Shown here one piece after another: positions 1 to 19,915 of a stretch of DNA of 20,000 bases (the first letter of the stretch is position 1; the number at the start of each line of letters is the position of its first letter). This stretch comes from an uncultured virus (IMG/VR IMGVR_UViG_3300025853_000072). Taxonomy: Duplodnaviria > Heunggongvirae > Uroviricota > Caudoviricetes > Crassvirales. Below the pieces are notes generated by a model. The model saw only the letters and a list, made by a program, of their open reading frames with translations, had not been told where the DNA came from and searched no databases. The stretch lies in IMG/VR virus record IMGVR_UViG_3300025853_000072; one strand, 5' to 3'. Position numbers and translations under genes: made by a program.

Positions 1-1509
1 GTATACGACGCCTTCGGTGACGGCATGTGCGGCAGCTGCTACGGCGGTGTCGATGGTAACCTACTGGTGGCCAACCTTTGCGGTGACGAGCTGTTCTACG
101 TTGGCGACACCACTCAGTACGAGAGCATTGGTAGCGACATCATTGTCGTAGAGCCATGCCTTCCTCCCATTCCTCAAGGCTGCACCGACCCGTGGTTTAC
201 TGAGTATGACCCCATCGCTGTGATTGACGACGGCAGTTGCCAGACAGAAGTTATCTTAGGATGTACTGATTCTCAGTCAATTAACTTTAACGAGAATGCC
301 AACACACTGGAGACAGAGGACAACTGTGACTTTACTCTGACACTTACGGACGGAGCAGGTGATGGATGGTTCGGAAGCTGGCTTGGAGTTCAGCAAGGTG
401 ACGAGACCTGGGGGCCTTTCACCATGTATCCTGCCGATGAGTTTGAGAAGGAGATTCAGATCCCCTTGTATTCTGGAGAGGCAGTCAACGTCATGTTCTT
501 TACGCAAGGCAACGCAGAGACTACAGCCAATCAATGCGGGTTCTACTTCGACGGACCTAATGGTGTATTCGTAGAGGGCGGAACCAACCCGTGGTCAGAT
601 GCTATCAAGAAGTTCCCGTTTAAGTACGAAGGGGTGCCTGTCTGCGGAGACTTCTGCGAGCCTGCCATCGTGGGATGCACGCTCAGCTTCGCGTGCGACT
701 ACAACCCAGAGGCAAACGTAGACGGTGACTGCACGTTCCCTATCGAGTACTACGGATGCGACAACGAGTGCATCAACGATACAGATGGGGACGGTGTATG
801 TAACGAACTCGAAGTCGTCGGATGTCAAGACCCCACCGCCTTCAACTACAACGAGGTGGCTACCGATCCAGCTGAATGCGAGGAGGTTGTGTTTGGATGC
901 ACTGACCCTACGATGTTCAACTACAACGAGCAGGCGAACACGGAGAACAACAGCTGCATCCCCTACATCTACGGTTGCATGGACCCAGATGCAATCAACT
1001 ATGACGAAGATGCCAACACTGAGCTAGAGGACTCCTGCATCCCCGCAGTTTCTGGATGCATGGACATTGATGCGCACAACTACAACCCCGATGCCAACAT
1101 GACAAGCGATGAATGCTTGTACGATGCTGGATGTATCACTGGCCCAGGGGAACCATACTGGGCCAACGACTTCTGCTACTCGTGGGTGATCGAGGTTGAC
1201 CCTTACTGCTGCGAAGTAGGATGGGATGAGGTATGTATCCAGATGTACGAGTACTGCAGCCAGGGTGTGACTAGCGTGGAGAGCTATGGGCTATATCACA
1301 TTCAGTTATGGCCCAACCCCACTAGAGGTGTCATCAACTTCCAGGCACCTGTCGGAGCATTTGCAGACGTTTACAGCGCCTCTGGTCAGATCGTAGTATC
1401 TGGCACTACATCGGGGCATATCGATCTTAAATCGCTTCCTAACGGGGTTTATGAGGTTGTTGTAAATTACAAGGAAGGATTTAGTGTAGAACGAATCATC
1501 AAGCAATGA
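1..1509 (+). CDS. Cys-rich repeat protein with C-terminal T9SS (Por secretion) type A sorting domain; 5'-truncated by the window edge
   Basis: The frame is open from base 1 (VYDAFGDGM...). It has about 7 GC(T/M/Q)Dx-x-A-x-NYN-like repeats, a DxDGDG Ca-binding-like motif and an LTLTDGAGDGW beta domain. The C-terminus IQLWPNP...DVYSASGQ...IDLKSLPNGVYEV...ERIIKQ matches the T9SS CTD pattern (YPNP / G..V / L..G.Y / K.IK). Confidence 0.85.
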   Translation, partial: VYDAFGDGMCGSCYGGVDGNLLVANLCGDELFYVGDTTQYESIGSDIIVVEPCLPPIPQGCTDPWFTEYDPIAVIDDGSCQTEVILGCTDSQSINFNENANTLETEDNCDFTLTLTDGAGDGWFGSWLGVQQGDETWGPFTMYPADEFEKEIQIPLYSGEAVNVMFFTQGNAETTANQCGFYFDGPNGVFVEGGTNPWSDAIKKFPFKYEGVPVCGDFCEPAIVGCTLSFACDYNPEANVDGDCTFPIEYYGCDNECINDTDGDGVCNELEVVGCQDPTAFNYNEVATDPAECEEVVFGCTDPTMFNYNEQANTENNSCIPYIYGCMDPDAINYDEDANTELEDSCIPAVSGCMDIDAHNYNPDANMTSDECLYDAGCITGPGEPYWANDFCYSWVIEVDPYCCEVGWDEVCIQMYEYCSQGVTSVESYGLYHIQLWPNPTRGVINFQAPVGAFADVYSASGQIVVSGTTSGHIDLKSLPNGVYEVVVNYKEGFSVERIIKQ

Positions 1510-3227: not shown

Positions 3228-3281
3228 ACCAATAGCGAAGTTCCACAGCTAACTAAACCCGTGTAACCCTACGAATATACG

Positions 3282-14069: not shown

Positions 14070-14206
14070 GCGTTTCGGTGTTGATTGTATTGATTCATGA
14101 TTTGCTCAACGGTCATGCCGTCGTTCAGGGATTCAGGTCGCCTGTCCATCCAGTACACAAGGGAGCGGAGGTAGTTGGCGGCGTAGTCATAGGGTTGTTC
14201 ATTCAT
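14066..14206 (-). CDS. Hypothetical 46-aa protein (MNEQPYDYAANY...)
   Basis: The start overlaps the upstream stop and the stop overlaps the downstream ATG. Confidence 0.55.
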   Translation of the reverse strand: MNEQPYDYAANYLRSLVYWMDRRPESLNDGMTVEQIMNQYNQHRNA

Positions 14207-14801
14207 CGGTCTTGAGTTTCTTGGGGATACGGAAAGCGTGCATGGTGTAGTCGTCGATGTCGATGAAGGCTTCGTTGCGGTAGTACACAGAGGAGATGAA
14301 CTCACCCATTTGTGCAAGGTTGTGCAGGGATTGGTGAGGATTGTCGTCGGTGCTGTTGTCCATCACATCGGAGGAGACACGAGCCACAAGTGACATACAC
14401 AGGGGGTAGTAGTCCCATGCCACGCAGGAATCCTGTTGGTCCCACGTCAGCCAGATATGCTCGGTGGTGGAAGAGTTCTCGTATCGTGAGGCATCAACCT
14501 CGACGATGCGGAACACCTCGACACTCACGTCATCCATGTACTCTGCAACGTAGTCGTCGTGGTCCATGTCTGAGGGGACGCAAGCCTTGTAGTTGTCAGG
14601 GTCGCGGTCCATGGTGACAAAGGTGTGCATCATGTCACGGCTGTGTTCGATGTTGACACACATCTCGTCCTTGCGGTAGTCGTCGAGGTTTTGCTTGATG
14701 TGCTTGATGGCGGACTCTTCGTCGGGGAAGAACTCGCAAGTGGTGTCGGAGTAGCCTTCGTACAGGCCGCACACTCCGTGGATTACTGCATAAATTTTCA
14801 T
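14199..14801 (-). CDS. Hypothetical acidic early protein
   Basis: 200-aa ORF preceded by the TCAAACTTCAA leader motif. Confidence 0.7.
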   Translation of the reverse strand: MKIYAVIHGVCGLYEGYSDTTCEFFPDEESAIKHIKQNLDDYRKDEMCVNIEHSRDMMHTFVTMDRDPDNYKACVPSDMDHDDYVAEYMDDVSVEVFRIVEVDASRYENSSTTEHIWLTWDQQDSCVAWDYYPLCMSLVARVSSDVMDNSTDDNPHQSLHNLAQMGEFISSVYYRNEAFIDIDDYTMHAFRIPKKLKTDE

Positions 14802-14843
14802 AGGTAGTGAATTGAAGTTTGAAAATGATTGATAAGTATTGTC

Positions 14844-14885
14844 TGTATATATACTCTCTTCACTCTGTTCAGAGAGATATATACA
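14844..14885 (-). repeat. Long hairpin, copy 1 of 3
   Basis: Plus strand TGTATATATACTCTCT-TCACTCTGTTC-AGAGAGATATATACA. Related copies at 15490-15544 and 16663-16725. Confidence 0.8.
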
Positions 14886-14897
14886 TACATACTATAG

Positions 14898-14946
14898 AAG
14901 GGAGGAGGGGACTCGAACACCTCGGACGCACCGACTGCGCTCCCTT
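14898..14946 (-). ncRNA. tRNA-like mini-element (acceptor-like stem, one hairpin, T-arm-like hairpin)
   Basis: Minus strand AAGGGAG-CGCAgtcggTGCG-tcc-GAGGTG TTCGAGT CCCCTC-CTCCCTT. Confidence 0.45.
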
Positions 14947-14947
14947 G

Positions 14948-15025
14948 AAAAAAGTCAGGGTTTGGCCTGACGCTTCAGGTAAAAAAGTGAGGGGATAGCC
15001 TGACGTTTCAGGTAGTTACCCCCTC
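14948..15025 (-). terminator. Two tandem intrinsic terminator-like hairpins, each associated with a CCTGA-A(A/G)CG-TCAGG hairpin
   Basis: Minus strand GAGGGGGTAA...TATCCCCTC-AC-TTTTTT and GTCAGG-CCAAAC-CCTGAC-TTTTTT. Confidence 0.6.
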
Positions 15026-15040
15026 GTGGTCAAACTTCAA

Positions 15041-15238
15041 TTAACCAAAGTGAGATGCGTGGTACATGATGTCCTCGTCGTGGAGACGGAAGGACGTTGC
15101 ATTCTGAAGTGCCGAGTCCCATACGCTGTCGATGTAGACAGCATACTGCTTGGGTTCGCACTCCACTACCGATGCGTTGTACCCATCATCTGTGAGTACG
15201 GAAACGCATTTGTCGCAAAGGTCTTGTGTGATTTTCAT
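15041..15238 (-). CDS. Hypothetical protein (start MKITQDL)
   Basis: ATGA overlap with the stop of the upstream gene at 15235-15238. Confidence 0.55.
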   Translation of the reverse strand: MKITQDLCDKCVSVLTDDGYNASVVECEPKQYAVYIDSVWDSALQNATSFRLHDEDIMYHASHFG

Positions 15239-15462
15239 GAGTTTACTGCGATTACATATTTTTCTTTGATAGACCACTTGAGCATCCGTTTCTTCTCCTC
15301 TTCGCTCTCCCAATCGAACATCATTGTGGCGTCAGCGATGTTCCGAATCCATTCAGGGTCGTGGCGTGAAACCACGTTCAAGCGGTCGAGGAACTCGCCG
15401 TAGTGAAAGCCGTTCAGGTACAGCACGGCGGAGCCGATGGTGGGGAAGTTTGATTCAGTCAT
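15235..15462 (-). CDS. Hypothetical early protein
   Basis: Directly downstream of a doubled TCAAACTTCAA motif. Confidence 0.65.
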   Translation of the reverse strand: MTESNFPTIGSAVLYLNGFHYGEFLDRLNVVSRHDPEWIRNIADATMMFDWESEEEKKRMLKWSIKEKYVIAVNS

Positions 15463-15489
15463 GGGTTTGAAGTTTGAAGTTTGACATTG

Positions 15490-15544
15490 AGAGGGTTGTA
15501 TATTACCTTCTTCATAAATTCAGAAGGTATATATACTACCTCTC
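15490..15544 (-). repeat. Long hairpin, copy 2 of 3
   Basis: Plus strand AGAGGGTTGTATATTACCTTCT-TCATAAATTC-AGAAGGTATATATACTACCTCT. The stem covaries relative to the other copies. Confidence 0.75.
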
Positions 15545-15546
15545 TA

Positions 15547-15732
15547 TTAAGGTTGGTCGGTGGTGCCGATGCCGAAGTAAGAGAGGTCGAGCCATGTGTC
15601 CTCGTTGTACGCCTCGGCAACCATTGAGGTTGCTTCGTAGTCGCGGCACTCGGAGTAGTAGGCGTACGCCTCGATGAGTTCGTCGTGACAAAGGTCACGG
15701 AATGGGTTGAAGTATTCGTTGAAGTTTGACAT
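15547..15732 (-). CDS. Hypothetical highly acidic 61-aa protein
   Basis: D/E/Y-rich ORF that begins ATG-TCAAACTTCAA. Confidence 0.6.
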   Translation of the reverse strand: MSNFNEYFNPFRDLCHDELIEAYAYYSECRDYEATSMVAEAYNEDTWLDLSYFGIGTTDQP

Positions 15733-15738
15733 GGTAAA

Positions 15739-15978
15739 TCACTGATTTTGAATGACTTTGAAGGTTTTGTTCCACACGGTCCACCCCGTGTTTGCGAAGT
15801 AGTCCTGTGCCGAGCGGATGGCTTCCTCTTTCGTGAGAGCCTTGATTTTGTGAGGGCCGCGCCAATCATCGCGGTCCCTCCCGTAGTATACGTAGTACTC
15901 GAATGTATGAAGTCCTGCCTTTGCTTTCATGGCTTCGTAGTGTGTTCCCTTCGCAGGGTAGCGTTCCCAAATGTTCAT
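15739..15978 (-). CDS. Hypothetical protein
   Basis: ATGA overlap with the upstream gene. Confidence 0.65.
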   Translation of the reverse strand: MNIWERYPAKGTHYEAMKAKAGLHTFEYYVYYGRDRDDWRGPHKIKALTKEEAIRSAQDYFANTGWTVWNKTFKVIQNQ

Positions 15979-16403
15979 GATGTTTGATTTTCGGTTTGAC
16001 GTGCAGGCAACTCGACCTTCGTGGTGGCTCCACCAACAACGAAGTCGGGGTTGCGTACCTCTGACTGCGCTTGGAAGTCGTAGATGGCGATTTCGTTTCG
16101 GTGCTTCGCAAGTTCCAAGGCTACGTACTTGCTACGAACCACGTCGGAAACCTCGATGAAGGCCATTCCTGCATCCACCCAGCCCCCGATCACCTGTGTG
16201 TCTGGGTCGAGCATCTCTGATGCCATGCTTGTCATGGCAAGACAGAACTTATTGAACGAAAGGCTGTCGTTTTCAACGACAAGAGAAGGGACTTCGGTGC
16301 CGCCTACTGCGTAGCCACGGCCTGTGAAGGTCTTTTGGTCAGCGTTTACGCTGAAGCCCTCGCCGTCTTGCAGGGCCATGTAAAGAGATTGCAATGATGC
16401 CAT
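15975..16403 (-). CDS. Hypothetical early phage protein (start re-assigned to MASLQSL)
   Basis: The ATG at 16403 follows the leader motif. The track GTG at 16433 lies inside the ribozyme. Motifs GFSV...GYAVG...IGGWVD...EVS...ALELA...EIAIYDF. Confidence 0.7.
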   Translation of the reverse strand: MASLQSLYMALQDGEGFSVNADQKTFTGRGYAVGGTEVPSLVVENDSLSFNKFCLAMTSMASEMLDPDTQVIGGWVDAGMAFIEVSDVVRSKYVALELAKHRNEIAIYDFQAQSEVRNPDFVVGGATTKVELPARQTENQTS

Positions 16404-16422
16404 TGTAAATGAATTGAAGTTT

Positions 16423-16475
16423 GATACAGACACCCCAAAGGGGTGTTTCGCCTACTCAAGGCTCATCAGTGTATC
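16423..16475 (-). ncRNA. Type I hammerhead ribozyme
   Basis: Minus strand GATACA-CTGATGA-GCCT tgagt AGGC-GAAA-CACCCC ttt GGGGTG-TC-TGTATC. All core nucleotides are present, with three perfect stems and a GUC cleavage triplet (cut between 16429 and 16428). Confidence 0.93.
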
Positions 16476-16487
16476 TGTGATTGGATA

Positions 16488-16634
16488 TTACATATCCATC
16501 AAATCCTCCAGGGTCATCTGCTCAAGGCAAGACATCTCATCCCACGTAGCCGTGGCACGGACTGATTCGAAGGAAAGGTGAGAATCGAGGAGTTCAGCAA
16601 TCAGCTGAGAACGGACATCAGTGAATGTGTTCAT
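16488..16634 (-). CDS. Hypothetical acidic 48-aa protein (alternative in-frame ATG at 16661)
   Basis: Follows a doubled leader motif. The stop is 12 nt before the ribozyme. Confidence 0.55.
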   Translation of the reverse strand: MNTFTDVRSQLIAELLDSHLSFESVRATATWDEMSCLEQMTLEDLMDM

Positions 16635-16662
16635 GATGAATTGAAGTTTGAAGTTTGACATT

Positions 16663-16725
16663 GAGAGGTTCTGTATATATACTCTCTTCACTACGTTCAG
16701 AGAGGGTATATATACTAGAACTCTC
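16663..16725 (-). repeat. Long hairpin, copy 3 of 3
   Basis: Plus strand GAGAGGTTCTGTATATATACTCTCT-TCACTACGTTC-AGAGAGGGTATATATACTAGAACTCTC. Confidence 0.8.
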
Positions 16726-16737
16726 TAGTAGTTGGGA

Positions 16738-16839
16738 TTATTGCCCTCGGCCCCTCAACAAGTTGAGAAAGGCGAGCACACAGAGAACACAGAGTGTTCC
16801 GTATACGCAGAGCATGAAGAGTTGGAGAATGATTGTCAT
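16738..16839 (-). CDS. Putative 33-aa single-TM peptide (MTIILQLFMLCVYGTLCVLCVLAFLNLLRGRGQ)
   Basis: Read by hand because it is below the track cutoff. It fills the gap, and has a hydrophobic helix with a basic C-terminus. Confidence 0.55.
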   Translation of the reverse strand: MTIILQLFMLCVYGTLCVLCVLAFLNLLRGRGQ

Positions 16840-16849
16840 CTTCGATGAA

Positions 16850-17005
16850 TTAGAGTTTTTCCATTGACATTGCTAAAGCAATGAGACCGATTTGAGTCTC
16901 GTAGAGACTTGCGTTTTCAGGTATGCTTGAATCAATTCCATTGATTTCAAGGATGTTATCGATTTCATCGATAAGACGGAGCACGAAGGAATGTTTGGTA
17001 TTCAT
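16850..17005 (-). CDS. Hypothetical 51-aa protein
   Basis: ATG at 17005 after a TTCATTGAAA leader similar to that of the 17519 gene. Confidence 0.5.
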   Translation of the reverse strand: MNTKHSFVLRLIDEIDNILEINGIDSSIPENASLYETQIGLIALAMSMEKL

Positions 17006-17015
17006 TTTCAATGAA

Positions 17016-17519
17016 TTAGATGATGAATGGAACGTCGTCGAAGCCAACTTCGTTGATTGATTGAGGAGTCGAAGACTCCATGTGGATGGCCAAGCAAGCT
17101 GTCAGGGCTTCAACCTTGGCTTCCAAAGAAGCCAACTTGTCATCCTCTGCCTTCACTTCGGCTTTCTTGGCTGCTCTCTGAGCAGCTCCTGTGTGCTCTG
17201 AGACAGCCTTGGCTGACTCAGCAGCTTCCTTAACGGAAGCCTTCGGAGCCTTCTTGGAAGGCTTGACTGGCCCAACTTCGTTGGTCTTCATCGAAGCTCT
17301 GTCCATTTGGTCTGCCACCTTCTGTGAAGGTGTTCTCTTCGCCGTCTTACGACGGCCCTTCTTGGCCTTCTTCTTGGTCGGCTTAACCTCTTCGAGGTTA
17401 TTGACGAAGTCCATAGCTTCTTGCAGAAGCTTCAGAGCCAGAGCTTTACGCTCTGAAGTAGGACGGAAGGTGGCTTGGTTCACTGCCTTACGGCAGTCTT
17501 GGAATTGGAAGTTATTCAT
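17016..17519 (-). CDS. First gene of the leftward unit: Lys/Ala-rich protein with FDDVPF-like tail
   Basis: Basic patch KPTKKKAKKGRRKTAKR, AAKKA segments, a coiled coil and C-terminal GFDDVPFII. Confidence 0.75.
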   Translation of the reverse strand: MNNFQFQDCRKAVNQATFRPTSERKALALKLLQEAMDFVNNLEEVKPTKKKAKKGRRKTAKRTPSQKVADQMDRASMKTNEVGPVKPSKKAPKASVKEAAESAKAVSEHTGAAQRAAKKAEVKAEDDKLASLEAKVEALTACLAIHMESSTPQSINEVGFDDVPFII

Positions 17520-17541
17520 TGAAAATGAATTTGAAGTTTGA

Positions 17542-17712
17542 CCTAGAACCGACTTCTCAAGGCTCTAGGAGATAGTAGTAAGGAAGAGAAGTCGTAAGAC
17601 TCCTCTTCTCTTTCTTACTACATCTCTACTCTGCCACCATCTTATTCCTTTACGAAGTAAAGTAATAGTTTGACCGAATCCTCGGTAGTGACAGGAAGCC
17701 AACAAGTTGGCT
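17542..17712 (-). ncRNA. Candidate structured 5' leader RNA
   Basis: Consecutive stems: CUGUCACU/GGUGGCAG closing two hairpins, a ~22-bp interrupted hairpin, and CCUAGAGCC/GGUUCUAGG. G-U pairs mostly favour the minus strand. Confidence 0.5.
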
Positions 17713-18201
17713 ATGTGTGCTACTGACGCAGCGCACCGCTCCGCCAATGGATTTTGATGTTGACAAAACATTCTCAATAACCCATGGTTATTGCAATTAC
17801 CAACAGCATCGAGGTTGGTAGTGTCTAGTCAGGTTGGAGTAATACTCCAAGTTGGAAAGGGAAAGGGGGTGATTGTCAACGCATTATGCCTAGGAACAAG
17901 CTGCGTACCCTTTTAGCCAGTTCTCTGTTAAACCAAAGGTTTAAGCTACAGGTCTAAAGACCTGTCGGTGAGATGGTTAGCGTCAAAAGTTACCCCACAA
18001 TCTTTGATTGTGTCGAAGGGAGGGGGGTCAGAAAACTCGTTTTCTGTGTCGAATTGGCCTCTCGTCAGATACATATAATCCCCACCCTACGTATTTCTCA
18101 CCCATTTTTCGAGGCGTGCGATCCGCTCGTCAAAGCGGGAGAGCACGTAACAGTCTCGTTAGGAAGCGGTTAAGGCTATTGATTAAAGTAACAATTCAAT
18201 C

Positions 18202-18232
18202 TTGACTTTTAAGAATTTCTGTTATACCTTTG
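18202..18232 (+). promoter_or_regulatory. Bacteroidota sigma-A promoter
   Basis: TTG (18202)-N20-TACCTTTG (18225-18232). Confidence 0.7.
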
Positions 18233-18361
18233 CTATTCTATATGGGGTGCTTTGGCGCACCCACACTAAATCAATAAGGATGTATAACTGTTCAATACAG
18301 GTTAGCTGTGTCCAGGCGTTAAGAGGCGGTTCTTGATCATCTGAGGTAAAAACAAAAGCAT

Positions 18362-18369
18362 TATATTTG
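18362..18369 (+). promoter_or_regulatory. -7 box TATATTTG directly before a start codon
   Basis: TAnnTTTG ending 4 nt before the ATG at 18374. The -33 element is weak. Confidence 0.5.
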
Positions 18370-18373
18370 CTGC

Positions 18374-19915
18374 ATGGCTAGAAAAGTAGACAAGCGGAGC
18401 CGTGCTCTCAGGCGCAACCTGAGGAAGCAGGCCCGCAAGGGGACACTCTCTGCACGTGAGCAGAAGGATCTTCTTGATCAAGAGGGTCGATTTAGAAAGG
18501 CGGCACGCCGTCGACGACCATACACACTTGGTCTCCCACTCGGGATGGGTGCAGGACTCGGTGCTGCAGCGCTGTTGGGTGGTGACATCTTCAGCAGACT
18601 GGGTGGTGCGAATAAAGAAGGTGTTCCTTCAGGGGATCCTGGGGACGTGACGGCGGGCCAGGAAAGGCCCTCCGAAACGTCTGAGCTTTTGAAGAGGTTG
18701 GAGGCGATGGGGGTAGATGCAGATCCACAAGAAACTACCAATGATGCAAAAGAAGAACCAACCTCTGAAGCAGGAGGACCTGGAGTGGGGGAGACCGCTT
18801 CTGAACCTGCATCCGATGAAGCTGCCGAAACTGCCGAAGCCGAAGAAGCGGAAGATCCTGAGGTGATCGCTGCTAGAAGAGCAGCTCTCGCCGAAGCAAT
18901 GAACGATCCAAATGCGTTGCGTACGGATGCGGCTACTGGTGAGATTCTCAATCAGGATCTTTACTTTACTCCAGAGTATACACCCTATGGAGATCCCGCA
19001 GCCATGGGAGCGACTCGGGTCTCTCCTAGAAATTTAACTCAAGATCTTCTAGAGGGGTTAAGCGGTCGTCAGATCAAGTCTATTGCAGACCTTGAAGCTA
19101 GACCACTCCCGAGTATGGGGCCATCTCTCGTCGACGGACAACAAAGACTTCTCGACTATCCTACGTACGAGGTCCCATTCAGGGAGCTTAGTCCGAAGGA
19201 GTACAGAAATCTTTCGCGTGACGAGAAGAGAGCATACAACGACGCACTGGAGGAGTACCGTTTCAGTGGTCCAGAGGTACGCGGTGCCTTCCCGTTCAGG
19301 CCTACACAGGTAGACGCGGGACCTAGCGCCGCAGAAGAAAGAAGAGAAGCGCTTCAGCCAGAGCTGGAGAGACGCAGACAGGAGAACGCTGCAGATCCTG
19401 CCTTGCGCAGTGCAAGAGAAGTGGCCTCTCAAGTTGATACACCGAATCCTCGTCGATGGAGCTACGGCAGTCCAGTCTTTAGGGAGATGTACCCTGGGGA
19501 CGAAAGAGTTGCCACTGGCAGCAGCAGAGATGAATTGATCAGAAGACGAGGCAACATGGTAGGTGCGAAAGAAGCCCTGCGTCCTGAAGAGGGCATTGGA
19601 CTCGGTGGCGCCACTGATTACACTGGAGGCTTTGATGTCGGGTCTGCCACTATGGACCCTAGAGACGGTAGAGTTGCAGCAGCCCTCGGCTTGCGTCCCA
19701 TGACAGACATGGAGAGGGTTGAGATGTTGCGCCGTGGCGTGAGCGCCAACGCGCAACGTGAAAGAGATGCCATCCTTGCGGATCAGGCTCGTAGAGCTGC
19801 AGCTGCACAGGCGGCAGGCGTGAGCGGTATCCCATACAGACAGGCCATGGGAGGAAAGAACCCATCCACTGCGAAACTCATGAAGCGCATCAAGGCTAAA
19901 TACGGAATGAAGTAA
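18374..19915 (+). CDS. Largely disordered protein, possibly virion-associated or ejected
   Basis: Arg/Lys-rich N-terminus, Gly-rich hydrophobic segment (LGLPLGMGAGLGAAALLGG), acidic low-complexity middle, no Cys. First gene of the divergent unit. Confidence 0.7.
   Translation: MARKVDKRSRALRRNLRKQARKGTLSAREQKDLLDQEGRFRKAARRRRPYTLGLPLGMGAGLGAAALLGGDIFSRLGGANKEGVPSGDPGDVTAGQERPSETSELLKRLEAMGVDADPQETTNDAKEEPTSEAGGPGVGETASEPASDEAAETAEAEEAEDPEVIAARRAALAEAMNDPNALRTDAATGEILNQDLYFTPEYTPYGDPAAMGATRVSPRNLTQDLLEGLSGRQIKSIADLEARPLPSMGPSLVDGQQRLLDYPTYEVPFRELSPKEYRNLSRDEKRAYNDALEEYRFSGPEVRGAFPFRPTQVDAGPSAAEERREALQPELERRRQENAADPALRSAREVASQVDTPNPRRWSYGSPVFREMYPGDERVATGSSRDELIRRRGNMVGAKEALRPEEGIGLGGATDYTGGFDVGSATMDPRDGRVAAALGLRPMTDMERVEMLRRGVSANAQRERDAILADQARRAAAAQAAGVSGIPYRQAMGGKNPSTAKLMKRIKAKYGMK

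What the first reader, a model, noticed from the sequence alone, without database searches (positions are those of the whole stretch)
14810..17712. Modular 'structure + common leader' architecture: candidate multi-mechanism mRNA processing system
Seen: in five intergenic spaces a structured element is followed on the minus strand by the same TCAAACTTCAA motif and then a start codon. The elements are the structured leader (17542-17712), hairpin 16663-16725, the hammerhead, hairpin 15490-15544, and the tRNA-like element plus hairpin (14844-14946). Established: T7 early mRNA is cut into monocistronic units at RNase III hairpins. Inference: this phage may cut its early transcript with interchangeable devices (ribozyme, RNase III-like hairpins, RNase P/Z-like substrate) so that each product begins with a standard leader. 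The hammerhead occupying the slot filled by hairpins elsewhere suggests they are functionally equivalent.
Basis: inference. Interest (0 to 1): 0.8.

Follow-up and report, generated by a model that had tools for sequence, protein, structure and literature searches.

The report
Interchangeable RNA punctuation in phage operon
In the early genes of an uncultured phage that probably infects Bacteroidota, a self-cutting hammerhead RNA, long hairpins and a tRNA-shaped RNA take turns in front of one shared, G-free start-up leader, which looks like a mix-and-match way of breaking one long message into single-gene messages, although no cutting has been measured.

Summary
TCAAACTTCAA occurs 9 times exactly, against 0.03 expected, and all copies lie in 14812-17541. 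Five minus-strand sites follow a structured element and precede an ATG.

The hammerhead at 16423-16475 is real. In 19 aligned copies, 264 of 264 cells pair and 8 of 17 pairs show compensatory changes.

About 20 related phage contigs keep the same plan. The element in front of the same downstream gene differs between relatives:
- 48-aa gene: hairpin 7, hammerhead 8.
- 75-aa gene: hairpin 12, hammerhead 2.
- 142-aa gene: hammerhead 5, hammerhead plus tRNA-like 1, hairpin 1.
- 200-aa gene: tRNA-like element with a hairpin, alone, or with a host-type promoter.

The leader is G-free (1.8% G) and usually ends 21-24 nt before the ATG. That fits a host that does not use Shine-Dalgarno sites.

Caveats:
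- The hairpins are DNA-type perfect palindromes, with 1 G.U in 661 pairs.
- Element type tracks the upstream gene.
- No cleavage by RNase III, P or Z is shown.

An inverted copy of the leader forms a hairpin at the end of the operon.

Verdict: a new variant of known phage mRNA punctuation. This scan already met the family on other DNA (e1-5895089).

The parts
17543..17626 (-). First-leader structure: a long hairpin (17569-17626) followed by a small hairpin (17543-17568) that abuts the motif
   Evidence: -41.5 kcal/mol, z -4.5. The same two-hairpin leader is present in L001, L002, L008, L019 and L025.
17531..17541 (-). Leader motif, slot 1. ATG at 17519 starts a 167-aa basic protein (17016-17519).
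16663..16725 (-). Long hairpin, type A: 26 bp, with a bulged A in the 5' arm, a bulged C in the 3' arm, and an apical GAAC/GUGA with a triloop
   Evidence: z -5.9. Covariance-model hit of 89.2 bits.
16641..16658 (-). Two overlapping leader motifs, slot 2. ATG at 16634 starts the 48-aa gene (16488-16634).
16423..16475 (-). Type I hammerhead ribozyme. The predicted cut lies between 16429 and 16428, so the 3' product would start UGUA followed by the motif.
   Evidence: Full catalytic core and three stems. Covariation. Rfam RF03152 scores 33.5 bits, below its gathering score of 56.3.
16414..16424 (-). Leader motif, slot 3. Its first two bases are the end of hammerhead stem I. ATG at 16403 starts the 142-aa gene (15975-16403).
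15719..15729 (-). Motif copy directly after the ATG (15732) of the 61-aa ORF, with no structure upstream
15489..15544 (-). Long hairpin, type B, 20 bp
   Evidence: z -6.5. Covariance-model hit of 43.7 bits.
15467..15484 (-). Two overlapping leader motifs, slot 4. ATG at 15462 starts the 75-aa gene (15235-15462).
15022..15052 (-). Anti-leader hairpin just after the stop of the last early ORF (15041-15238). Its 7-nt loop UUGAAGU and 3' arm are the reverse complement of the leader motif (15030-15040).
   Evidence: I9, I18, I19; z -2.4. It is present in 19 of 22 sources, and L017 carries a matching variant.
14948..15025 (-). Two terminator-like hairpins, each followed by U6. The first holds a conserved inner GAAACGUCA hairpin.
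   Evidence: (z -3.1).
14898..14946 (-). tRNA-like element: a 7-bp acceptor stem (AAGGGAG/CUCCCUU), a D-like hairpin with GG, a T arm with a GUUCGAGUC loop, and no anticodon arm
   Evidence: ARAGORN finds no tRNA and Rfam has no hit.
14835..14893 (-). Long hairpin, type A variant, 24 bp
   Evidence: z -3.8. Covariance-model hit of 50.6 bits.
14812..14822 (-). Leader motif, slot 5. ATG at 14801 starts the 200-aa gene (14199-14801).

Best explanation
The early operon of this phage family is written as cassettes separated by RNA punctuation.

The leader. Each gene starts with a fixed, G-free leader, UCAAACUUCAA plus about 10 nt, usually 21-24 nt in all. I read this as a standard unstructured translation initiation region for a host ribosome that ignores Shine-Dalgarno sites.

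The devices. Directly upstream sits a device that ends the previous message and gives the next one a 5' end close to the leader. Four kinds are seen:
- A type I hammerhead that cuts itself 4 nt before the motif. The fold is shown; the cutting is inferred.
- A 20-28 bp hairpin whose base also lies 4 nt before the motif in the commonest class. It may be cut as double-stranded RNA by an RNase III-type enzyme, or it may act as a 3' cap beside a cut in the single-stranded leader. Both are inferred.
- A tRNA-shaped element that keeps only the acceptor and T-arm parts that RNase P and RNase Z recognise. Cutting is inferred.
- In some relatives, an ordinary host promoter.

The devices are exchangeable because recombination joins cassettes at the shared leader.

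The anti-leader. A hairpin in the 3' untranslated end of the operon displays the antisense of the leader. It probably pairs with leaders to damp early translation. This is inferred.
For: - The motif is far beyond chance and confined to the early genes.
- Hammerhead: there are 24 copies in 27 sources, all on the sense strand and all with a full core. In 19 aligned copies, 264 of 264 cells pair and 8 of 17 pairs are compensatory, while slid controls pair at 55% or less. A conserved G.U in stem I marks an RNA on the sense strand.
- Swapping at orthologous genes: 48-aa gene, hairpin 7 and hammerhead 8 of 15 rows; 75-aa gene, hairpin 12 and hammerhead 2; 142-aa gene, hammerhead 5, hammerhead plus tRNA-like 1 (L001), hairpin 1 (L025).
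- Strict host-type promoters (TTTG, 20-21 nt, TAnnTTTG) end 8-29 nt before the motif in 7 slots. In L017 and L022 such a promoter stands in front of the 200-aa gene, where the window has a hairpin. The motif is therefore part of the 5' untranslated region.
- Leaders hold 1.8% G over 1891 nt in 88 slots. In 72 of 88 slots the ATG lies 21-24 nt after the motif start. No gene in the window has a Shine-Dalgarno site.
- In Flavobacterium johnsoniae, initiation is tuned by low secondary structure at -20 to +20 and by A at -3, -6, -12 and -13 (PMC6847099, passages read).
- Hairpins: 43 sense sites were found in 240,650 nt and all lie in early regions. Of 59 copies of the type-A core in the viral collection, 54 are followed by the motif in the same orientation. 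Asymmetric bulges and the loop are conserved.
- The tRNA-like element is in 19 of 23 sources, with a hypervariable insert where the anticodon arm would be. Other, sequence-unrelated tRNA-like elements occupy slots in L001, L013, L018 and L023.
- No phage RNA polymerase was found in 4 relatives that are at least 99% complete. The giant ORF of one complete relative has no DxDxD motif.
Against:
- The hairpins have 1 G.U among 661 pairs and fold as well on the antisense strand (93% against 95.5% paired). They behave like DNA palindromes. Their compensatory changes could come from palindrome-correcting template switching rather than from selection on RNA.
- Element type tracks the upstream gene: U3 hammerhead 5 of 5, U5 4 of 4, U6 4 of 4, U2 hairpin 5 of 5. 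The devices may therefore be 3' features of the preceding gene.
- Some slots have a motif with little or no structure (window 15719-15729; L002 2612; L022 3150 and 5088).
- The window has two U-tract terminators before the tRNA-like element and hairpin, so these are transcribed only by read-through.
- No consensus host promoter was found within 900 nt upstream of the first leader in the window or in 5 relatives of its subgroup.
- The tRNA-like element alone has z -0.95.
Confidence: 0.55

Rival explanations
1. The system shuffles cassettes and the elements are passive 3' structures. The units are leader, gene, then 3' element. The hairpins are not cut. They protect the 3' end of the upstream message and insulate the next leader from upstream pairing. 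The shared leader matters mainly as microhomology that lets early genes be reshuffled, as PeSL motifs do in T4-type phages.
For: Element type follows the upstream gene, and the same upstream gene plus element is joined to different downstream genes: U3-hammerhead joins D2 or D3, and U0-hairpin joins D2, D3 or D5. Tandem motif copies offset by 7 nt look like out-of-register joints. Gene order differs among relatives. PeSL cassettes are described in PMC2839356 and PMC4122927; I saw the search listing and abstracts only.
Against: A hammerhead is a cutting device, not a passive cap, and it sits in the same slot. Microhomology alone does not explain the fixed 21-24 nt spacing to the ATG, the absence of G or the anti-leader. 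This reading overlaps with the best explanation more than it excludes it.
Confidence: 0.2
2. The hairpins, and perhaps the motif, work at the DNA level. They would be cruciforms or inverted-repeat binding sites, for example operators or promoter elements for a phage factor, placed before each early gene.
For: There is only 1 G.U in 661 pairs and the antisense strand folds equally well. In L017, three leaders and the inverted copy changed together (TCAAACATCAA and TTGATGTTTGA). This is what one DNA-binding specificity, or gene conversion, would produce. No consensus host promoter lies upstream of the window's first leader. An earlier scan report on a related phage also called the hairpin a DNA-type palindrome (e1-5895089).
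Against: Conserved single-base bulges on opposite arms and an asymmetric 11-nt loop break the symmetry that a dimeric DNA binder would need, and their orientation relative to the leader is fixed in 54 of 59 copies. Three unrelated hairpin sequence types occur within single genomes. A hammerhead or a tRNA-like element replaces the hairpin. Seven slots have host promoters immediately upstream of the motif. No phage RNA polymerase was found.
Confidence: 0.12
3. The motif is itself a promoter for a modified or phage-directed RNA polymerase. Each early gene would then have its own start, and the upstream structures would only end the previous transcript.
For: The spacing between motif and ATG is fixed. 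In the relative phi14:2, early genes are transcribed by a virion polymerase with no recognisable promoter motif (bioRxiv 10.1101/2020.03.07.982082, passages read). A complete relative carries a 3102-aa orphan ORF.
Against: The motif bears no likeness to the host -7 element on the sense strand. Host promoters sit just upstream of it in 7 slots, which would make tandem promoters. Hammerhead stem I needs transcription through the first bases of the motif. The giant ORF has no DxDxD motif, no PDB match, no match in cultured phages and no RNA polymerase family.
Confidence: 0.08

Closest known systems
Clustered hammerhead ribozymes flanking genes in prophages and phages (Perreault et al. 2011, PMC3088659; passages read)
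   Same: Hammerheads lie between small genes of one transcript. The authors propose that long phage RNAs are processed into operon-length or single-gene messages. They also report a halovirus hammerhead 13 nt upstream of a start codon, with a mapped 5' end within 3 nt of the cut.
   Different: Here the hammerhead is fused to a fixed G-free leader. At orthologous positions it alternates with long hairpins, tRNA-like elements and promoters. The family also carries an anti-leader hairpin.
RNase III processing of the T7 early transcript (named from my own knowledge; no paper read)
   Same: Hairpins between early cistrons of a single host-made transcript, proposed to yield single-gene messages with protective hairpin ends.
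   Different: Cutting is not shown here. The stems are nearly perfect 20-28 bp palindromes without G.U pairs. The host is probably a Bacteroidota member with no Shine-Dalgarno use.
tRNA punctuation of polycistronic transcripts (mitochondria; tRNA-linked bacterial operons; from my own knowledge)
   Same: An acceptor and T-arm structure at a gene boundary could direct RNase P and RNase Z cuts that free the flanking messages.
   Different: The element is not a tRNA. It has no anticodon arm, or a hypervariable insert in its place, and no tRNA finder detects it. Its 3' half matches no genome exactly in 185,579 species.
PeSL mobile regulatory cassettes of T4-type phages (PMC2839356, PMC4122927; search listing and abstracts only)
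   Same: A repeated composite intergenic motif with a stem-loop flanks small variable early ORFs and marks the joints of modular shuffling.
   Different: By its name, a PeSL is an early promoter plus a terminator stem-loop. Here the repeated part is a translated-region leader, no host promoter consensus lies inside it, and ribozymes take part.
Synthetic insulators and guide-RNA arrays that use ribozymes, Csy4 hairpins or tRNAs to standardise RNA ends (from my own knowledge; the reviews listed were not read)
   Same: Ribozyme, hairpin-plus-nuclease and tRNA serve as interchangeable ways to free RNAs with defined ends from one transcript.
   Different: Those are engineered. This would be a natural counterpart, and it is untested.

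Membership tests
Hammerhead ribozyme, type I | Catalytic core CUGANGA ... GAAA ... U-H at the junction of three helices | tested here: met
   Window 16423-16475 reads GAUACA CUGAUGA [stem II] GAA A[stem III]U C UGUAUC. The same core is in 24 of 24 copies found, and the core columns are invariant in alignment A2.
Hammerhead ribozyme, type I | Three helices kept by compensatory changes | tested here: met
   264 of 264 cells pair and 8 of 17 pairs changed on both sides; 0 of 500 shuffles reach this, and slid controls pair at 55% or less.
Hammerhead ribozyme, type I | Score above Rfam's gathering threshold | tested here: not met
   RF03152 scores 33.5 bits against 56.3 for the window. RF00163 scores 22.8 against 34 for a relative.
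Hammerhead ribozyme, type I | Self-cleavage | not testable with these tools
   This needs in vitro transcription of 16400-16500 (minus strand).
RNase III processing hairpin (T7 R-site type) | About two turns or more of double-stranded RNA between cistrons | tested here: met
   The stems are 20-28 bp. In 30 distinct sense copies, 95.5% of 692 cells pair. All 43 sites lie between early ORFs.
RNase III processing hairpin (T7 R-site type) | Signs that the helix is selected as RNA, such as G.U pairs or strand asymmetry | tested here: inconclusive
   Only 1 G.U among 661 pairs, and the antisense strand pairs at 93%. However, the bulges, the loop and the orientation relative to the leader are conserved.
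RNase III processing hairpin (T7 R-site type) | Cleavage by RNase III | not testable with these tools
   The host is unknown and no RNA data were available.
tRNA or tRNA-like substrate of RNase P and RNase Z | 7-bp acceptor stem stacked on a T arm with the canonical T loop | tested here: met
   The window has AAGGGAG/CUCCCUU and GAGGUG-UUCGAGU-CCCCUC. The element is in 19 of 23 sources. The T stem changes GAGG/CCUC to GUUG/CAAC with pairing kept.
tRNA or tRNA-like substrate of RNase P and RNase Z | Full cloverleaf with an anticodon arm, detected by tRNA finders | tested here: not met
   ARAGORN finds 0 genes in the window and in 4 loci. Rfam gives no tRNA hit in the window. Only the different element in L001 reaches 28.3 bits, against a threshold of 29.
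PeSL-type mobile regulatory cassette | A repeated intergenic motif at the joints of shuffled small early genes | tested here: met
   Gene order differs among relatives, and the joints fall between the element and the leader.
PeSL-type mobile regulatory cassette | The motif contains an early promoter and a terminator stem-loop | tested here: not met
   No host-type promoter lies in the window's slots. The hairpins have no U tract after them.

The most novel reading that the evidence does not exclude
This phage family may carry a complete RNA-level grammar for expressing genes in a host that is blind to Shine-Dalgarno sites. Any device that creates an mRNA 5' end is interchangeable in front of one fixed 21-24 nt G-free ribosome-loading leader. 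The devices are a host promoter, a hammerhead, a double-stranded hairpin and a tRNA-like element. That would imply that translation of these messages depends on a nearby 5' end. A 3'-end anti-leader hairpin would then switch all leaders off by loop-to-leader pairing. If so, phage hammerheads would have a defined job.
Probability: 0.2. Interest if true: 0.85.

Novelty: new variant of a known kind. Interest (0 to 1): 0.62.

Why it matters
What bacterial and phage hammerheads are for is still open; Perreault et al. could only suggest message processing. In this family the ribozyme sits in a defined slot. It is fused to a shared leader and is replaced in close relatives by other candidate end-making devices and by plain promoters. 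That turns the question into a simple experiment: do all four devices give the same 5' end and the same translation? It would also show how phages of Bacteroidota organise translation without Shine-Dalgarno sites. If it works as proposed, it offers natural, compact parts for multi-gene expression in that phylum.

Tried and rejected
- Whole genome of the window: none is held.
- Cultured relatives: blastn of the region against 50,697 phage records found nothing. The best protein match for the primase-helicase is Maribacter phage Panino at 35% identity.
- Rfam: only a sub-threshold hammerhead hit in the window. It found nothing for the hairpins, the tRNA-like element or the extra structured blocks in 6 loci.
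- tRNA fragment or attachment-site reading of the tRNA-like element: its 26-nt 3' half has no exact match in genome contigs, and the window holds no integrase family. I dropped this reading.
The 3102-aa ORF of G003 has no DxDxD motif, no PDB match, no match in cultured phages and no informative family. The idea is not supported, but it is not excluded.
- Host promoter upstream of the window's first leader: none was found, either strict or with one mismatch, within 900 nt.
- The 'HH+TLS' labels my script gave to L010 and L012 were false; the T-loop-like string lies in coding sequence.
- L004 from the first pattern scan is a chance match.
- Pairing of hammerhead loop II with the leader: considered by eye and dropped, because the loop varies in ways that a fixed leader could not follow.

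Full report
**What the window is.** Genes run on the minus strand from 17519 down to 3282. They include ribonucleotide reductase, a BT4734-type primase-helicase and a recombination exonuclease. One plus-strand ORF ends in a type IX secretion sorting domain. The best cultured match for the primase-helicase is Maribacter phage Panino at 35% identity, followed by Cellulophaga, Nonlabens and Flavobacterium phages. No gene has a Shine-Dalgarno site. I read the window as an uncultured phage of Bacteroidota. The flagged stretch is its block of small early genes.

- TCAAACTTCAA occurs 9 times exactly against 0.03 expected, and only in 14812-17541.
- All five described slots are present at the stated places.
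- The three long hairpins have 26, 20 and 24 bp and z-scores of -5.9, -6.5 and -3.8. The first leader scores -4.5 and the hammerhead -2.7. The tRNA-like element taken alone scores only -0.95.

**Relatives.**
- A pattern scan and a protein-based scan of the viral collection gave about 25 related contigs at roughly 52-86% protein identity, plus one near-identical contig.
- L027 nearly duplicates L018, and L003, L024 and L028 come from one contig.
- Four relatives are at least 99% complete genomes of 60-65 kb. One has 123-bp terminal repeats, and its early block starts about 2.3 kb from the left end.

**The hammerhead is genuine.**
- A rule-based scan found 24 copies in 27 sources. All are on the sense strand, with an intact core and three stems.
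- In 19 aligned copies every one of 264 cells pairs, 8 of 17 pairs have changes on both sides, and slid controls pair at 55% or less.
- Stem I holds a conserved G.U, which marks a sense-strand RNA.
- In 19 of the 24 copies the 3' strand of stem I ends in the first two bases of the motif, so the 3' product would begin 4 nt before UCAAACUUCAA.
- Rfam scores stay below threshold.
- L018 has two hammerheads in tandem. L001 and L018 carry branched inserts of 110-130 nt in stem III.

**The slot is shared by different devices.** I grouped 108 motif-plus-ORF slots by the protein that follows.

| Downstream gene | Devices found upstream |
|---|---|
| 48-aa gene (15 rows) | hairpin 7, hammerhead 8; one row is the L027 duplicate and one is a second start in L009 |
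| 75-aa gene | hairpin 12, hammerhead 2 |
| 142-aa gene | hammerhead 5, hairpin 1 (L025), hammerhead plus a different tRNA-like element 1 (L001) |
| 200-aa gene | tRNA-like element plus hairpin in most; tRNA-like element alone in L002; tRNA-like element plus a strict host promoter in L017 and L022 |

- Seven slots in all have a promoter of the form TTTG, 20-21 nt, TAnnTTTG, ending 8-29 nt before the motif. This is the Bacteroidota consensus given in PMC6847099.
- The motif therefore lies in the 5' untranslated region.
- A primary 5' end can stand where processing devices stand elsewhere.

**The leader.**
- Over 88 slots the leader holds 1.8% G, and the part after the motif holds 3.5%.
- In 72 of 88 slots the ATG lies 21-24 nt after the motif start. 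Tandem motif copies simply fill this spacing.
- The leader covers the stretch where low secondary structure and upstream adenines favour initiation in Flavobacterium johnsoniae.
- I infer that it is a standard unstructured initiation region.

**The hairpins.**
- A covariance model built from 14 type-A copies found 43 sense sites, plus 31 weaker mirror hits, in 240,650 nt. All sit upstream of the 200-aa gene.
- In 30 distinct sense copies 95.5% of 692 cells pair, and 20 of 24 pairs changed on both sides. This alignment is fitted to the model, which favours pairing.
- Three sequence types share the same plan: about 25 bp, a bulged A and a bulged C on opposite arms, and an apex of two G-A mismatches, two pairs and a small loop.
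- Of 59 exact copies of the type-A core in 2.9 million viral contigs, 54 are followed within 75 nt by the motif in the same orientation. Two more have a two-mismatch motif, one is cut off and two are not followed.
- Against an RNA-only reading, only 1 of 661 pairs is G.U and the antisense strand pairs at 93%. Such palindromes can also gain 'compensatory' changes by template switching, so the covariation is weaker evidence than it looks.
- An earlier report of this scan on a related phage made the same caveat (e1-5895089). Its word 'widespread' does not fit what I found for the type-A core.

**The tRNA-like element.**
- It has a 7-bp acceptor stem, a D-like hairpin with GG, and a T arm with the canonical loop.
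- Where the anticodon arm should be, it has nothing or an insert of up to about 100 nt.
- It occurs in 19 of 23 sources. The four without it are cut off or end early.
- Other, unrelated tRNA-like elements occur in L001, L013, L018 and L023.
- No tRNA finder accepts them, and the 3' half matches no genome exactly.
- The parts that are kept are those that RNase P and RNase Z recognise. That is established knowledge; it was not tested here.

**Cassettes.**
- Element type follows the upstream gene at least as well as the downstream one: U3 hammerhead 5 of 5, U5 4 of 4, U6 4 of 4, U2 hairpin 5 of 5. The upstream ORF was picked by a crude rule.
- The same gene-plus-element is joined to different downstream genes. 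The joints therefore fall at the leader, which is the only sequence all units share.
- This resembles the PeSL cassettes of T4-type phages (abstracts only). Here, though, no promoter or U-tract terminator lies inside the motif.

**The anti-leader.**
- Right after the last early ORF, GGUURR-UUGAAGU-UUGACC folds into a hairpin. Its loop and 3' arm are the antisense of the leader.
- It is present in 19 of 22 sources. Changes from A to G in its 5' arm keep pairing as G.U.
- It is complementary over 11-13 nt to every leader, and over 16 nt with one mismatch to the leader of the 200-aa gene.
- In L017, three of four leaders read TCAAACATCAA and the anti-leader reads TTGATGTTTGA. That fits RNA pairing. 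It fits gene conversion or a DNA-binding factor equally well.

**What is in print.**
- Perreault et al. 2011 already proposed that clustered phage hammerheads cut long transcripts into gene-length messages.
- My searches listed no paper that describes hammerheads alternating with hairpins, tRNA-like elements or promoters in front of a shared leader. None of the 15 papers listed on flavobacterial phages contains the word hammerhead.
- These searches cover only the held library, and only the listings were seen.

**Verdict.** The anatomy and the swapping are shown. Cleavage is inferred for the hammerhead from its fold and remains open for the hairpins and the tRNA-like element. I rate this a new variant of a known kind. 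This scan has already met the family on other DNA.

Noticed in passing
window 15022-15052 (-); L017 5705 and its leaders at 3232, 3893, 5979: An anti-leader hairpin at the end of the early operon displays the antisense of the shared leader. In L017 the leaders and the anti-leader carry a matching T-to-A / A-to-T change.
   Followed up: partly
window 17560-18370: An 800-nt gene-free stretch lies between divergent genes, and its hairpins are conserved in L002 (69% identity). There is no consensus host promoter on the minus strand. Two perfect -7 boxes lie on the plus strand (18225-18232, 18362-18369) just before ORF 18374-19915.
   Followed up: partly
window 14948-15025 (-): Two tandem terminator-like hairpins. 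The first has a conserved inner GAAACGUCA hairpin that is also kept in relatives lacking the U tract, so it may be more than a terminator.
   Followed up: no
L010 5770-5900; L012 3445-3780; L013 1700-2270; L014 4785-5115; L025 5770-5900: Between the tRNA-like element and the last hairpin lie further conserved structured blocks of 100-350 nt, including second tRNA-like elements. Rfam gives no hit at E up to 0.5.
   Followed up: partly
L018 2615-2815; L001 2103-2268: Two hammerheads stand directly in tandem in L018. L001 and L018 also have hammerheads with branched inserts of 110-130 nt in stem III.
   Followed up: partly
L032 782-10090 (-) and 12150-16409 (-), in complete relative G003: A 3102-aa orphan ORF has no RNA polymerase motif, no PDB match and no match in cultured phages. 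A nearby 1419-aa protein has a crAss-type muzzle C-terminal domain, which hints at crAss-like virion parts.
   Followed up: partly
window 17016-17519 (-): The first early gene encodes a 167-aa protein rich in Lys and Ala, with no Pfam or PHROG family. It is conserved in 15 slot rows and could bind nucleic acid.
   Followed up: no
window 16738-16839 (-) and L002 4034-4091 (-): Tiny hydrophobic ORFs of about 20-33 codons lie between the annotated small genes. In L002 one of them ends inside the hammerhead.
   Followed up: no
contig IMGVR_UViG_3300006919_002226 (L046-L051): This 9750-nt contig carries three hairpin cores on each strand in mirror order. It looks like an inverted-duplication assembly artefact.
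   Followed up: no
window 1-1509 (+): This phage ORF ends in a type IX secretion sorting domain (Por_Secre_tail, 28.3 bits), which is unusual for a virion or accessory protein and is a clue to the host phylum.
   Followed up: no
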